A DNA stretch of 64,000 nucleotides from Octopus vulgaris. Lineage: Eukaryota. A program made the position numbers and the translations under genes. Below the pieces are notes generated by a model. That model did not search any database. It worked only from the letters and a program-made list of their open reading frames with translations, and was not told the DNA's origin. Below, one piece after another: positions 1,106 to 46,100 of this stretch. The DNA is taken from positions 159,154,001-159,218,000 of the forward strand of contig OX597814.1 in the NCBI GenBank assembly GCA_951406725.2. Direction: 5' to 3'. How positions within the stretch are numbered: the stretch's first letter is position 1; every line of letters begins with the position of its first letter.

Positions 1106-1135
1106 CAACTGTAGATTCAATTTCAGATGGCTTTT
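1106..1135 (-). CDS. Microexon 30 nt [10 protein letters not shown]
   Basis: tttgttcag, GTTG|gtgagt. Confidence 0.87.
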
Positions 1136-4100
1136 CTGAACAAATTTTAAAATAAATACAATAAGAACGTCATTTGACTATTTAACGCAAAAATTAAAAT
1201 TCAAAATTCATCCCTATCTTTATCTCTGTGTGTGCGTGCTTTATTAATGAAGCAGTAAAGACATCACAAAAGCTGTTACTCAGAGTTTCACGTTCCCGTT
1301 CGTCAGACAGTTTTGGTTGGGGATGTCCGACGAACAGAAACGGGAAACTCTGAGTAACAGCTTTTGTGATGTCTCTGCAGCTTTACTAAAAAAGCATATG
1401 ACACTACCTCCGTTATTTGAGTACTTTTTTTCCACCTTGCTTCACATTTATGGGCTTACTCTGGTATATAAGAATATATATATATATATATATATATATA
1501 TATATATATATATATATATATAAATATGTGCATATATATATTCATATATACCAACAGTAAACAATATGAAATGCGAAAATAAATGAGTTTAATACGCAAA
1601 CAACGAAAGAAACAAATGGAAAACAGAACAAGTAGCACAAAGAACGACTCTTCAACAGTTGTCTAGTTACTTCTCATTTCGATCATTAAACGACAATATG
1701 AGACTTCGAAGAGAGTTGCTCCCATGCACCAAAATATAATTTGAGATTTATGGATGGTCGAAGTTCAGAACAAAAACAGGACAGTGGAGACATACAAGGA
1801 AACCGAAGGAAAACAAACATAGAGGTTCGTTATACCAGAACGAGGGTAAAATAGCGAACGCTAGAGAAATATTTTCTTGGACAAGAGAGAGATAGGATAC
1901 GTCCAGTCCTTAGGACAATCCTGAAAAGAAAGATTAACCCGTGTGGAAAAGAAATATGGACGATGGGGAGAAAAAAGGGAGAAAAAAGGGAGAAAAAAGG
2001 GAGAAAAAAGACGAAAGAAGGGAGAGAGAGAGAGAAACAGATAGAAAACGGTGAAGGAGAGAAAAGTATTTCGGTACTTATGGGAGCAACTGTCTTCGAA
2101 GACTCATATTGTCGTTCAATGCTCGAAATGAGGAGTAGATAGACAGCCGACAACTGATGAAGGGTTGTTCTCTGTGTTATTTGTTCTGTTTTGCATTTTC
2201 TCTCGTTGTTTGCGCATTGAACTCATTTGGTTTCATATTTCATGTTGTTTACTGTAGGTGGCGTCCTGTACTCATACATGCATATATATATATATATATA
2301 TATATATATATATATATATACATACATATATACATGCATATATGTATATATATATATATATATATATACATACATATATGCATGTATATATATATATATA
2401 TACATATATATAGAGAGTATATTTATCAAAAGAAAAACAGGATGCAAAGGATTTAGCGGTACATATATATATATATATATATATATATATATATATATAT
2501 ATATATATATATATATATATATATATATATATATATATATATATATATATATGGGTGTGTGTGATTGTGTATAGAAGAATATATTAATAAAAAGAATTCC
2601 AACCTTGTCTGATTTTCACGTTTTATTTACAATCTTATAATGATATATTATAAGATAATATATTATAATTGAATAAAATAAAATGAAATAGTAGAATGTT
2701 AAATATTCATTCTGATTGAACTAGTACTTTCATGCATTGAATTCTGCAATCTTCGGGTTCATGTAGTAGTGTTGACAGTCATGCTTCACAATTTTTGACT
2801 GTAGCAAGATGAGTGATTCTGTGCTATAAATACAGCTGGGTAGGCTCCAGAGTGCTAGGTTTTGCAAACTGTATTCTGACCAATCAGTGTGTAGTATCAC
2901 TCAATTACTTAAGCTGATTGGTTGGTTGAGCTGATTGGTTTAGGCTCAATTGGTTGAGCTGATTGGTTTATATATATATATATATATGCATATATATATA
3001 TATATATATATATATATATATATATATATATATATATATATATATATATATATATATATATATATATATATATATATATATATATATATATATATATATA
3101 TATGCATATATATATATATATGCATATATATATATATATATATATATATGCATGTATGTATATATATATATATTTACATACATACATGCATACTTTGCGT
3201 ATTTGTAATGCACCACTTTTGCTACGCTAATATATTTTTATAGATTGATCAGGTTTACGTTCGTTATTAACTAGGAATATTGCAAATTTATTAGAATTCG
3301 AAGGCAATCATACGCATATTCTATCAACAATATTGCATTACCATAAACAAATGTATATATTCTCAGAAAACTATTTTTAATTTTGATGTAGTTATATCAA
3401 AGGCGCTTACCTATGCGTGATTCGGTTTCGGTAACAATTTCTGTGAAATTAACAACGCAATCAATTAAATATAGTTTACATCAATTGTTACAATAAACAA
3501 GATTTGAAGAACGAGTTCAATGTAATTTATTAATAATTCAACACGGAAATATTTATTGGATACTTTCATCGCAATTTCTTCAGGGAAACCTACAAAGCAT
3601 CGTGTGAATTAAAGTAAAATATATCATTTATGAACGTTAGTTCAAATTGATACAGGTGTTGAAGGAGATAACATTTGCCTTTTCTCATTCAATATTTTGC
3701 GATGTTTATTCATAGAGGCACTGCGGGTTTAGCATGTGGTATATGATAAGTTTAATATAACGAAACCTAGCTACAGAAAGTTAGATTTGAATGAAGAATG
3801 GTATCATCGGTATAGGACTGGTTGTTCTTGGTGTTGACAAGTACGTCGCTAACTTTTAGAAGCTACGATGAAAGGACTGACCCGAACAGAGAGCAATACC
3901 AGAGTTGGGAGCCTATGAGTCAGAGAAGGTTCTATCAGTACACACAATGGTGGTGCGATTTGATAGAAAGGCACCTCTCCAGGAGAGGGGAAACAATCTA
4001 AGGCATAGCAACCAGCAAATTTATCCAGGCGTTCGTGTGCCAACCAGGGTCAATTCGTGTGTACGGTTGTATACGTGTAGATGTATTTGTGGGGGGCGTG

Positions 4101-43100: not shown

Positions 43101-46100
43101 CATTCATTTATATACATACACACAAATAAATACATGCATACATAAATGTATGAATGTGTGTGTGCGCGCTCGTAAAATGTTGCGGCGCCATAAGCTGTTT
43201 GTAAGTCCAACGGAAAGTATTCAGTGAATCACCTCATGAAAGAATTTTATTGTATGTCTACTTATAGAAGCAGAATAATCATGCAATGTAAGCAAAAATA
43301 AAAAATGTAAATTTCACTCGTAATCAAAAAGTTTACTTTTTATATCAATATAAATCTCTCTTTACAATTTATGCTTAAATAGTGATACAAATACTTTATG
43401 CACACACTCATATACGAACGCAGAAAGTGCATTCTTAAAACTTGTCCCATTTAAACACCAATCGAACAGTCTAATCTGCTGGTCAGGGATTATGGACACA
43501 TGTATTTTCATAATCACACCATATATATAAAATCAGGTCTAGAAAAAGGTATGCATACTGCTGCTAAAATATTCACTGCATTTGAGGTCACAACAGTAAT
43601 GTATATCAGCTAAATTTATATTTGTAAATGCACTTTGGCTGCATTGGCAAGAGCTTTGCATCTCCTTAAGGAGATTGGCTAAAGCTACACATAATGAGAA
43701 AGAGCTTTTTTCAAAAATTTCTCGTCCTTAATTTTTAATTGATATTTTTGTAAATTATTTATTTTTAGTGTTTTCCCTGTCAAGTTTTAGGATTACCTCT
43801 TCCGTATGTCTGTAAGCCTGGTTGAATATATAGATACACAAATATGTTCATATTTAGGGGCTAACGCAGTTTTGCACCTCTCCTTGAAAAATGCATTTTT
43901 TTAAAAAAGATTTTTTCGGATTCCTACGTTTCAGATGTCGGAGATTACGACATCTAAAAAAAAATTTAATCTTCGACAGCTAAAACGTAGGAATCCGAAA
44001 AGATTTTTTCAAAATAATGTATTTTTCATGGAGAGGTGCCAAACTGCATTAGTCCACATATTTATTTATGTATAATATATGCATACATTTAAAATAACCA
44101 TATAAACACGTATGCATTTAAATGTATGTATTTGACTATCACATTACTTTTCTAGTTTTACACTTTAAAGAATTACTTCGCAAATATTACTTCAAAAAGA
44201 AACCTTTTCTTATTCACTTAATTTGAAATTGCCAGAAATATTTGTCCTTACCCGTATGAATTTCTGTTTCCGTAACAATTTCTGAAGAGTGAATTAATAA
44301 GAACATTTTTATACAGAATGAAGAATAAGTTAACGCAAATTAATATATATTTCAATCAGCAAGCTTCACACAAAGCAACACAAAATACTAGAAAAATATG
44401 GAGGTATATTCCTCATTAAATATTAAGAATTGGTTTGAATTAATGTGGTTATTTTTTTATAATGTACATATTTTTTTACAATATTTTTCAGAATATATTT
44501 CTCACTAAGATAGCTTTTTGCGTATACCGAATATAGCTTACTGATATAAGATGTATATCTATCTTTTTAAAATAGAGACAGTTAAATTATCGGAAATATA
44601 TTTAGCAATTCTCTGTAACAATTGATTAATATTTTTTTTAATTATTTTAATTATTTTAATTTTAAATAATAGGTCATATTCATTACTGAAAAATTCTATC
44701 TGATTATGTTAGCCTATATAAACGTATAACAAAATTCTTTGACTACGCTTTGACTGAAAGACAATCCTATTAAATTAATAGCGAAAGAGCAAATATCAGA
44801 CAAACGTAAATATTGTTAATAAACAAAACTCTCTTTACACAGCTTGTTTAAAAGAAACAAAAACGTCTCACGAATTTGAATATTTGAAAGCAAATTGAAT
44901 ATTCTTAGTTCTTGAAACAGTTGTAAACTTAATTTTCTTTTTTTTTTTTCTTTTTCAACATTAGTTTATAAAAAGCATATATATATAGCAGTGCATAATT
45001 AAATGCTGTCAATAAAAAAATGCACTCACCAAAACTGTCTTTCGACTCAGTAGTTTGTTCTGAACGAAAAAGGAAATGCCAGTAGATAACATTTTTTAAT
45101 AACAGTTTTCAACCAGAATGAAACATCTGAGGCAAAAATCCCAAGTTATATAATGTATTATGCTTGAAACAAATGGAGCATGCAAATGCTCATTACGGTT
45201 TATAACTATAATAAATCCGCATAAACTTTGCTAAGTTTTGTACTTAAGATATACATTTAGAATCAAACGAATAACACAATATTTGCAACGTTTGCAATAG
45301 CGAAAATGTATGACGAGAAGTTTATCATTACATTTGTGTGTAAAAGTTAAAACCTAATTACAGAAATTCTATATCATTTAATCCATATTTCCTGCTCGTA
45401 GTAAATAACAGATATATAATACTGTGATCATTGCATCATATTTGAACAGCTATGAAACTTGAACCTAGCACAGCATGCATATAAGGTAAATTAAATATTT
45501 CCACACATTCACACACACACACACACACACACACACACACACACACACATACAAACAAACAAGCACTCATATGCATATATATATGTGAATTCAGGTGTAA
45601 CTTGAAATGTCTATGCTATATTTCTGTGGAAGATATTATCCACATGATCAGTAACTGCCAAAAAATTTCAAGATATTATCACTCATTATCAAAGCAACAT
45701 AAATGTCATCCATATAAAATATTGCGACAATGCTCTTGTTATAGAATATATATATATATATATCAACCCAAGAAATCTCGGTGAAACATTTCCATCAAAA
45801 CGTATGCTAAGTGCAAGCCTGATATAGTTAAGACAGAAAAGAAAAAAATATAAACAGTGATAGATGAGAACATTTCTTCTAAAATTATTCAGAATATCTA
45901 TGAGCAACGCTTTGAGAACTGATTATAAATTCATATTTGTACTGATATTATTTGTGCAGTTGGCTAAATTAGAACCTGTTTGAGCGACTACTTGAGTTTT
46001 CAACTAATACACACCAATGCAATATGCGAGAATTGAAACAAACTCCTTCCTTGCAGGAAGAATTCAAATAATTAAACAAAAGAAACGGAAAGCATATATA

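What the first reader, a model, noticed from the sequence alone, without database searches (positions are those of the whole stretch)
1106..45059. Hidden array of ~48 symmetric microexons encoding a 10-residue-period segment of a giant Ig protein
Seen: 41 exons of 30 nt, five of 27 nt, one of 24 nt and one tentative of 21 nt, all on the minus strand with AG/GT ends and phase 1-1, downstream of four Ig exons. Joined they give ~1410 nt (~470 aa) with no stop, such as [60 protein letters not shown]. Only about 3% of the 44 kb is coding. Known analogues: titin PEVK exons, whose splicing tunes stiffness but which are larger, and schistosome micro-exon genes. Inference: a disordered, acidic, Thr/Ser-rich spring or spacer whose length could be set in ~10-aa steps by splicing, possibly a cephalopod counterpart of PEVK. 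Whether it is already described cannot be checked here.
Basis: partly seen in the sequence, partly recalled or inferred. Interest (0 to 1): 0.92.

Follow-up and report, generated by a model that had tools for sequence, protein, structure and literature searches.

The report
Giant microexon array in octopus obscurin
The window holds the start of a run of about 265 tiny exons (mostly 30 bases, ten amino acids each) inside the octopus gene for the giant muscle protein obscurin; together they encode a very long acidic repeat that probably acts as a flexible tether whose length splicing could change.

Summary
Confirmed and far larger than reported. The window has 47 phase-1 microexons (41x30, 5x27, 1x24 nt; the tentative 21-nt exon was not found). 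The array runs ~190 kb past the window: 265 intact microexons over 233 kb, 7,911 nt, 2,637 aa, no stop, joining two Ig blocks in frame. The gene is obscurin/UNC-89 (Ig, SH3, RhoGEF, PH, Fn3, two kinases), not titin. The exons are coding: dN/dS 0.21 between copies, with silent divergence equal to intron divergence. A RefSeq O. bimaculoides model joins 92 such units, the first 21 matching window exons in order; Argonauta models carry the same repeat. Two exon types alternate, so the repeat unit is 20 aa, grouped into 60-aa super-repeats. Composition (24% Glu, net charge -412) predicts disorder; a beta-solenoid appeared in only one of ten AlphaFold2 models. Best reading: an acidic, flexible tether or spring, up to ~1 micrometre long, in an M-line protein of muscle that lacks an M-line. 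Elasticity and regulated splicing are inferred; no RNA reads were examined. It works like PEVK but is not PEVK. No description was found in nine literature searches.

The parts
1106..45059 (-). 5' part (47 of 265 exons) of a symmetric phase-1 microexon array in the obscurin gene; the array continues left of the window to G000:C1:158,965,869
41614..45059 (-). Three lead microexons, 30 nt each: 45059-45030, 44281-44252, 41643-41614. The O. bimaculoides model P0001 has two further units between the second and third that are absent here
24578..40716 (-). Recent five-copy tandem duplication (3.4-4.2 kb units, 94-96% identical) carrying 19 microexons. 30 nt, starting at 40716, 40400, 37706, 37304, 36983, 34274, 33872, 33551, 30199, 29797, 29507, 26034, 25632, 25311; 27 nt, starting at 39699, 36282, 32845, 28805, 24604. 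The a/b alternation is broken here, and the two models that continue past this block skip it
21136..22786 (-). Four variant microexons: 22786-22757 (EYWI type), 22450-22427 (24 nt), 22038-22009, 21165-21136; the first three recur as a group three more times further along the array
1106..19664 (-). Start of the main array: 21 exons of 30 nt in six-exon super-repeats, starting at 19664, 17938, 17587, 16946, 16506, 16114, 15724, 13927, 13513, 12473, 12044, 11283, 10892, 7870, 6638, 5985, 5634, 5249, 4875, 3440, 1135; they match units 1-21 of RefSeq XP_052826240.1 in order
50479..50745 (-). Last Ig (I-set) exon before the array, 267 nt, phase 1-1
54820..55089 (-). Ig (I-set) exon, 270 nt, phase 1-1
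56199..56468 (-). Ig (I-set) exon, 270 nt, phase 1-1
61303..61569 (-). Ig (I-set) exon, 267 nt, phase 1-1

Best explanation
Octopus obscurin carries, between its first and second blocks of tandem Ig domains, a repeat segment of up to 2,637 aa encoded ten residues per exon. SHOWN: the exons are real, coding, under purifying selection and shared with another octopus and with Argonauta; they grew by tandem duplication of exon-intron units (a pair, then a six-exon unit). INFERRED: the segment is intrinsically disordered and self-repelling (net charge -412), with local beta propensity across the b-to-a junction. It works as a long compliant tether or entropic spring (contour length about 0.95-1.0 micrometre if every exon is used) that separates obscurin's N-terminal Ig block from its C-terminal Ig/RhoGEF/kinase part. 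That would let the protein stay attached to neighbouring thick filaments while they shear in obliquely striated fibres that have no rigid M-line. Its length can be changed by skipping exons, most likely in blocks or pairs; its stiffness could respond to Ca2+, pH or phosphorylation of acidic Ser/Thr sites. Odds by step: translated 0.97; mostly disordered when free 0.7; mechanical tether or spring as main role 0.55; some regulated skipping 0.65; fine 10-aa tuning 0.3.
For: Frame and splice sites. Selection: pS 0.203, pN 0.049, dN/dS 0.21 and flanking-intron distance 0.20 over 218 neighbour pairs from 224 of the 265 exons. Orthologous models: 59 of 92 units identical, 761 of 804 aligned residues identical; Argonauta P0129/P0130. 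Disorder: FoldIndex -0.195, 39% charged residues, pI 4.3; AF2 mean pLDDT 27-37 for all five models of the less perfect Argonauta repeat and under 50 for four of five models of the O. bimaculoides repeat. Skipping: two O. bimaculoides models use different exons after the same Ig exon (P0001; P0015). Precedent: the disordered interkinase region of UNC-89 is a measured entropic spring (PMC12812942 and PMC13242403, passages); titin poly-E flexibility responds to Ca2+ and pH (PMC9100103, passages). Cephalopod fibres lack an M-line or M-band (PMC5430041; PMC4757648 for tentacle fibres; passages). 366 S/T-x-x-D/E sites against 181 +/- 10 in 500 shuffles (reading this motif as a CK2 site is recalled).
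Against: No RNA reads or protein data were examined, so isoform lengths, tissue and localisation are unknown. The sequence is more ordered than a bare spacer needs: 226 of 238 steps in the main array alternate a/b, with 0 a-a and 12 b-b. Fixed hydrophobic positions (b6, b10, a2, a3: 92-100%) and 37% Val/Ile/Thr suggest beta structure or binding. Proline is only 4.9%. The best AF2 model of one repeat stretch is a regular 20-residue beta-solenoid (pLDDT 67, pTM 0.58). The differences between gene models could reflect assembly gaps or prediction rather than splicing, and the Argonauta models may have been guided by octopus proteins (not checked).
Confidence: 0.55

Rival explanations
1. Multivalent binding array: the segment is disordered when free, but each b+a pair (or each 60-aa super-repeat) forms a short beta-strand that docks on a periodic partner such as paramyosin, the myosin rod or an Ig edge. 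It would then be a ruler or zipper along the thick filament, and the number of exons would set avidity or length.
For: Strict order and dN/dS 0.21; a hydrophobic i, i+2 pattern spanning the b-to-a junction; six-exon super-repeat kept in two octopuses; the UNC-89 SH3 domain binds paramyosin (PMC4865318, search listing and start of abstract only); thick-filament length differs about tenfold between squid fibre types with few protein differences found (PMC4757648, passages).
Against: No partner identified. C exons are dropped and E-F pairs duplicated in several super-repeats, which a strict ruler should not tolerate. Repeat number varies greatly between models (92 units in one versus 265 exons here).
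Confidence: 0.22
2. Autonomously folded beta-solenoid: each b+a pair is one 20-residue coil, giving a stiff rod of about 130 coils whose length is set by the number of exon pairs.
For: AF2 best model, strands every 20 residues, pLDDT 67; it aligns with many solenoids at Z 11-15 with rmsd 4-9; 260 of 265 exons encode an even number of residues.
Against: The other four models score 25-50 and the Argonauta stretch 27-37. AF2 is known to fold perfect repeats into unrealistic beta-solenoids with stacked charges (PMC11795689, abstract). 24% Glu and net charge -412; only 9 Gly and 2 Asn in 2,636 residues. The fold matches are at 3-9% identity, with none standing out.
Confidence: 0.12
3. Constitutive passive spacer: all exons are normally included, or one fixed subset, and the array is simply how a low-complexity linker grew by unequal crossing over, with no regulated length and no elastic role.
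For: Models include long runs exon by exon. Neighbouring super-repeats range from 77% to 100% identity, showing ongoing expansion. Three type-a exons have lost their donor without apparent harm.
Against: Purifying selection on amino acids; two models of one species differ at the 5' end; the cost of 233 kb and about 265 introns.
Confidence: 0.09
4. Non-coding satellite, dispersed repeat or assembly artefact that mimics exons.
For: A few neighbouring units are 98-100% identical, so the exact copy number may be misassembled.
Against: dN/dS 0.21; one open frame of three; all 21 genome-wide exact matches of an exon-plus-donor pattern lie in this array on the minus strand; the same units stand in protein models of other species; most neighbouring units differ by 14-23%.
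Confidence: 0.02

Closest known systems
Obscurin / UNC-89 family (O. bimaculoides XP_052826240.1 'obscurin, partial'; C. elegans UNC-89; human OBSCN)
   Same: Tandem I-set Ig domains, one per phase-1 exon, then SH3, RhoGEF, PH, Ig, Fn3 and two kinase domains, in the order described for chordates (Ig block before RhoGEF; PMC12812942, section 'Obscurin evolution'). UNC-89 also has a repeat insert within its Ig chain (KSP region; PMC2120741 abstract; PMC13242403 passages) and a disordered elastic interkinase region.
   Different: No such microexon-built insert was mentioned in the passages read. This insert is up to 2,637 aa, against about 650 aa for the UNC-89 interkinase spring; it has no KSP motif and lies upstream of the RhoGEF part. 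The RefSeq model already holds 92 of these units, so part of the array is annotated though not described.
Titin PEVK segment
   Same: Low-complexity, Glu-rich segment between Ig blocks of a giant muscle protein, encoded by many small exons; titin's stiffness is tuned by splicing (PMC13031707, passages).
   Different: Different gene; P+E+V+K 47.8% against 75%, Pro 4.9%, no PPAK, 10-aa units against 26-28-aa motifs, Glu 24% against about 45% in poly-E (PMC9100103, passages).
Insect projectin PEVK
   Same: Alternatively spliced low-complexity insert between Ig blocks; PEVK content 42-100% (PMC3835035, passages), a range that includes 47.8%.
   Different: Isoforms of 34-624 aa with 2-21 alternative exons and divergent sequence, against 265 homologous exons in a strict 20/60-aa repeat; different gene family.
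C. elegans TTN-1 PEVT region
   Same: Recalled, not checked (the paper was not held; title seen in a reference list): a roughly 2,400-aa disordered region of 10-residue repeats in a giant protein of obliquely striated muscle. P+E+V+T here is 59%.
   Different: Titin family rather than obscurin; richer in proline as recalled; its exon structure was not checked.
Schistosome micro-exon genes (MEGs)
   Same: Runs of very short exons separated by long introns (10.1101/2023.06.21.545858, start of abstract only).
   Different: MEGs encode small secreted proteins; here the exons are homologous repeats inside a giant sarcomeric protein and are conserved rather than diversifying.
Avian fast troponin T P exons; tropoelastin exons (both recalled)
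   Same: Tandem frame-symmetric small exons building an acidic muscle-protein segment, or alternating exon types in an elastic protein.
   Different: A few to a few dozen exons as recalled, against 265; no sequence similarity was tested.

Membership tests
Obscurin/UNC-89 | Tandem I-set Ig domains | tested here: met
   4 of 4 window exons Pfam I-set; 15 Ig-size exons upstream and 23 between array and SH3 by tblastn
Obscurin/UNC-89 | SH3-RhoGEF(DH)-PH triad | tested here: met
   Exons downstream of the array pass the Pfam cut-offs for SH3_2, RhoGEF and SOS1_NGEF_PH and lie in the same RefSeq model as the repeat
Obscurin/UNC-89 | [quoted passage not shown] | tested here: met
   Same strand, expected order: Fn3-like exons by tblastn (the one scanned scores 24.9 against a cut-off of 25); two separate Pkinase hits above cut-off. 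That they are on the same transcript as the array is inferred; the RefSeq model is partial
Obscurin/UNC-89 | Localisation at the M-line or mid-A-band | not testable with these tools
   Needs antibodies; cephalopod fibres are reported to lack an M-line
Titin PEVK | Lies in the titin/connectin gene | tested here: not met
   The gene has the obscurin domain set
Titin PEVK | About 75% P+E+V+K | tested here: not met
   47.8%, Pro 4.9%
Titin PEVK | 26-28-aa PPAK motifs and poly-E motifs | tested here: not met
   0 PPAK; units of 10, 20 and 60 aa; Glu 24%
Titin PEVK | Intrinsic disorder | tested here: inconclusive
   FoldIndex -0.195; 9 of 10 AF2 models under pLDDT 50, one solenoid at 67
Titin PEVK | Length set by alternative splicing | tested here: inconclusive
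   Two O. bimaculoides models differ; no reads were laid
Titin PEVK | Entropic elasticity | not testable with these tools
   Needs force spectroscopy
UNC-89 KSP region | Tandem KSP motifs | tested here: not met
   0 KSP and 1 SP/TP in 2,636 residues
Schistosome MEGs | Many short frame-symmetric exons with long introns | tested here: met
   265 exons of 24-30 nt, introns 260-4,729 nt, median 423
Schistosome MEGs | Small secreted protein made mostly of microexons | tested here: not met
   Insert within a >5,600-aa obscurin model; no signal-peptide predictor was run
Beta-solenoid repeat proteins | Confident, reproducible solenoid model | tested here: inconclusive
   1 of 10 models; known AF2 bias; fold matches non-specific

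The most novel reading that the evidence does not exclude
Octopods rebuilt the M-line protein obscurin into a length-programmable linker: about 265 ten-residue exons, used in pairs and blocks, set a tether of anywhere from none to about 1 micrometre, and this splicing code helps set the stagger, extensibility or thick-filament arrangement of different obliquely striated fibres. This would be the cephalopod counterpart of titin's isoform tuning, placed in a different protein and read at finer grain, in a gene with about as many exons as human titin.
Probability: 0.3. Interest if true: 0.93.

Novelty: new variant of a known kind. Interest (0 to 1): 0.8.

Why it matters
Cephalopod muscle changes its performance mainly through filament dimensions, with few protein differences found, and it lacks an M-line (PMC4757648, PMC5430041, passages); the passages searched in those two reviews name neither titin nor (in PMC5430041) obscurin. 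A micrometre-scale, splice-adjustable segment in obscurin gives a concrete candidate that long-read cDNA and a few recombinant peptides can test. As gene architecture, 265 homologous microexons under purifying selection in one interval is extreme (I recall no larger array; not checked exhaustively). My rough tally of exon hits for the whole gene is at least about 350, near the 363 of human titin, which PMC12198301 calls the largest number. It is also a practical warning for annotation: only 3.4% of the 233 kb is coding, and the public models of relatives hold at most about 120 such units.

Tried and rejected
RNA evidence: no RNA holder listed on record (24 runs listed, 20 of them guessed to be RNA), and no reads were laid on the region, so splicing remains unobserved. 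Searches for the repeat outside octopods: phmmer against 1.84 billion representatives gave 31 hits, best E 4e-26 at 26% identity; the three I read (P0131, P0139, P0149) are unrelated low-complexity proteins. The word-indexed search found only the 2 Argonauta proteins among 7,999 scored candidates. The ESM Atlas gave no usable hit. None of these blanks shows absence. The tail of cuttlefish model P0002 scores 95 against the exon peptides versus 43.8 +/- 11.1 in 500 shuffles (0 of 500 reached it), but I chose the segment by eye and could not see its DNA, so it is a lead only. The 21-nt exon was rejected. Two units of P0001 were sought in 41640-44260 without splice constraints and not found. A second microexon array elsewhere in the gene was sought over the 664 kb held at that point (158.65-159.32 Mb); only scattered Ig-linker microexons were found. 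The beta-solenoid model was down-weighted. Dispersed-repeat origin was rejected. Catalogue filtering: of 293 non-overlapping candidates at score >=22, those under 26 were dropped, 5 more were removed by hand (2 microsatellite look-alikes, 3 true copies with damaged donors) and 1 was added, giving 265. Earlier scan notes: nothing for this genome or for 'obscurin microexon'. Forbes et al. 2010 on TTN-1 was not held. No supplements were read; annotation supplements of octopus genome papers could list this gene.
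Full report
OBSERVATION. A splice-site scan of the minus strand finds 41 exons of 30 nt and one of 24 nt between 45059 and 1106, and no 30-nt hit on the plus strand. Five exons of 27 nt lie at 39699, 36282, 32845, 28805 and 24604. These 47 exons total 1,389 nt, 3.2% of the span. Joined, they have no stop in the phase-1 frame and 20 and 52 in the other two. The tentative 21-nt exon was not supported. Four 267-270-nt Ig exons lie upstream.

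EXTENT. The window is G000:C1:159,154,001-159,218,000 of a 2.80-Gb genome. Ig exons flank it at 159.20-159.25 Mb and 158.91-158.96 Mb with none between. Over 264 kb including the gap, the scan gave 252 hits of 30 nt on the minus strand against 1 on the plus strand. Rescoring with peptides from O. bimaculoides models only gave 261 against 0 at score >=28. After filtering (see Tried and rejected) the catalogue has 265 intact exons: 256 of 30 nt, 5 of 27 nt and 4 of 24 nt. They span 233,191 bases (159,199,059-158,965,869); introns are 260-4,729 nt, median 423; coding total 7,911 nt, 3.4%. They join the upstream and downstream Ig exons in one stop-free frame. No combination of exon end and exon start makes a stop codon. 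Three more type-a copies have lost their donor, two of them by the same GT-to-GG change. All 21 exact genome-wide matches to an exon-plus-donor pattern fall within the array.

GENE. The last Ig exon is 96% identical to P0001, whose cluster holds RefSeq XP_052826240.1, 'obscurin, partial [Octopus bimaculoides]', 5,671 aa. The window's organism is therefore inferred to be a close Octopus relative. Downstream on the same strand lie more Ig exons, then SH3, RhoGEF and PH, a one-exon 14-aa repeat, Ig and Fn3 exons, and two kinase domains. The gene spans about 668 kb if the kinases belong to it, which is inferred from order. Ig blocks before the RhoGEF part is the arrangement described for chordate obscurins (PMC12812942, section read). 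Adding up exon hits gives at least about 350 exons (a rough hand tally); human titin has 363 (PMC12198301, passage).

THE EXONS ARE CODING. Among 224 of the 265 exons sorted into six subtypes (41 variant exons left out; last codon excluded), 218 neighbour pairs give pS 0.203, pN 0.049 and dN/dS 0.21; every subtype lies between 0.18 and 0.28. Flanking intron distance is 0.20, equal to pS. Within the window the main array has 20 silent against 7 replacement differences, and the duplicated block 9 against 4. The RefSeq model contains 92 units; 90 were aligned to this genome's exons in order, 59 are identical, and 761 of 804 residues match. Its first 21 units match window exons 19664 to 1135 one to one, 19 identically. 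Two Argonauta hians models carry the same repeat between the same Ig blocks. I could not see what evidence these models rest on; that clean 30-nt junctions imply transcript support is inference.

REPEAT GRAMMAR. Two exon types alternate: a (such as IVTETESRI) and b (such as KPSEIESTV), with 242 alternations in 264 steps against 132 in shuffles. In the main 239 exons there are 0 a-a and 12 b-b steps. Three a/b variants form a six-exon, 60-aa super-repeat. Neighbouring units range from 77% to 100% identity, so expansion is old in parts and recent in others. The first 26 exons differ: they include a five-copy duplication at 94-96% identity with all five 27-nt exons. The product is 24% Glu, 16% Thr, 15% Val, 9% Ser and 4.9% Pro, about 299 kDa, pI 4.3, FoldIndex -0.195, net charge -412, and 0.95-1.0 micrometre long at 0.36-0.38 nm per residue (the per-residue length is textbook). 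Hydrophobic positions are fixed at b6, b10, a2 and a3.

SPLICING. P0001 runs from the Ig exon into the first exons of the array and ends there. P0015, from the same species, and Argonauta P0129 run from that Ig exon straight to the homologue of 19664, skipping 26 exons of this genome. P0015 also leaves the array at the homologue of exon 146 of 265. This fits block skipping but could reflect assembly gaps or lineage-specific growth. No RNA reads were examined, so regulated splicing is not shown.

STRUCTURE. Single-sequence AF2 on 269 aa of the O. bimaculoides repeat gave one 20-residue-period beta-solenoid (pLDDT 67.4, pTM 0.58) and four models at 25-50. On 406 aa of the less perfect Argonauta repeat all five models scored 27-37. 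The solenoid matches many unrelated solenoids at 3-9% identity. AF2 is reported to produce such folds for perfect repeats, with stacked charges (PMC11795689, abstract). With 24% Glu and almost no Gly or Asn, I rate a stable solenoid at 0.12, but the beta-like pattern keeps folding-on-binding open.

MECHANISM. Most likely (0.55) the segment is a disordered, self-repelling tether or spring between obscurin's two Ig blocks. Precedents are the measured interkinase spring of UNC-89 (PMC12812942, PMC13242403; passages) and the Ca2+- and pH-sensitive poly-E motifs of titin (PMC9100103; passages). Obscurin is an M-line protein, whereas cephalopod fibres are reported to lack an M-line (PMC5430041; PMC4757648; passages). 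A long compliant link would suit thick filaments that are staggered and shear; this step is inference. Rivals: a multivalent binding ruler (0.22), a folded solenoid (0.12), an unregulated spacer (0.09), an artefact (0.02).

COMPARISON AND NOVELTY. The gene is a member of the obscurin family. The segment works like PEVK in position and likely role but fails the PEVK membership tests, and it is neither the KSP region nor a MEG. Part of it stands in public gene models, so the exons are not wholly unannotated. Nine full-text searches, of which some were aimed at this question, listed no paper describing it; I saw only the top 10-20 listings of each, and the library lacks most subscription journals. 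The obscurin review PMC12812942 has no occurrence of 'mollus'. Earlier scan notes on smaller microexon arrays in other genomes show that the design recurs, and one of them warns that such arrays can be constitutive; I did not test them. Verdict: real, coding, much larger than reported; a new variant of a known kind; interest 0.8.

Noticed in passing
G000:C1:158,955,118 to 158,930,865 (L030-L033), minus strand; also 159,233,875: At least nine 30-nt phase-1 linker microexons (xPxVxEPDT type) between downstream Ig exons, and one 24-nt linker upstream. The RefSeq model includes such a linker at some Ig junctions and not at others.
   Followed up: partly
G000:C1:158,876,575-158,875,514, minus strand: A single large exon encodes about 20 copies of a 14-aa repeat rich in P, E, V, K and A, after the PH-Ig part: a more PEVK-like segment in the same gene, built without microexons.
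   Followed up: no
3' splice sites of type-a exons, for example window 16114 and 13927: 124 of 130 type-a acceptors carry a TTAAT-like word 5-16 nt before the exon, against 38 of 135 type-b and 4 of 25 Ig acceptors. The copies are homologous, so the counts are not independent; possibly a type-specific splicing element.
   Followed up: partly
G000:C1:158,943,140-158,943,406 and 158,940,754-158,940,921: Two Ig exon copies with stop codons inside the downstream Ig block, probably dead exons.
   Followed up: no
G000:C1:159,067,713; 159,034,567; 159,030,643: Three type-a microexons with damaged donors; the first has an intact counterpart in the O. bimaculoides model.
   Followed up: partly
protein P0002 (Acanthosepion pharaonis), last 80 residues: After the matching Ig domain the cuttlefish model has five 10-aa units resembling the octopus exons, suggesting the array may predate the octopus-cuttlefish split.
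   Followed up: partly
G000:C2:122,420,314-122,611,450: A second cluster of related Ig exons on another contig, probably another giant muscle gene.
   Followed up: no
window 57676-58918 (+) and 53822-54346 (+): Reverse-transcriptase-like fragments of LINE type in introns between Ig exons, judged from the translation only.
   Followed up: no
G000:C1:158,799,140-158,798,088 and 158,776,626-158,774,431: An open 351-aa Tc1-like transposase frame and a 732-aa LINE-like frame in the long gap between Fn3 exons, judged from the translation only.
   Followed up: no
type-b exons, for example window 19664-19635: They end in E-S-T-V, which resembles a class I PDZ-binding motif (recalled), but here it is internal, not at a C-terminus.
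   Followed up: no
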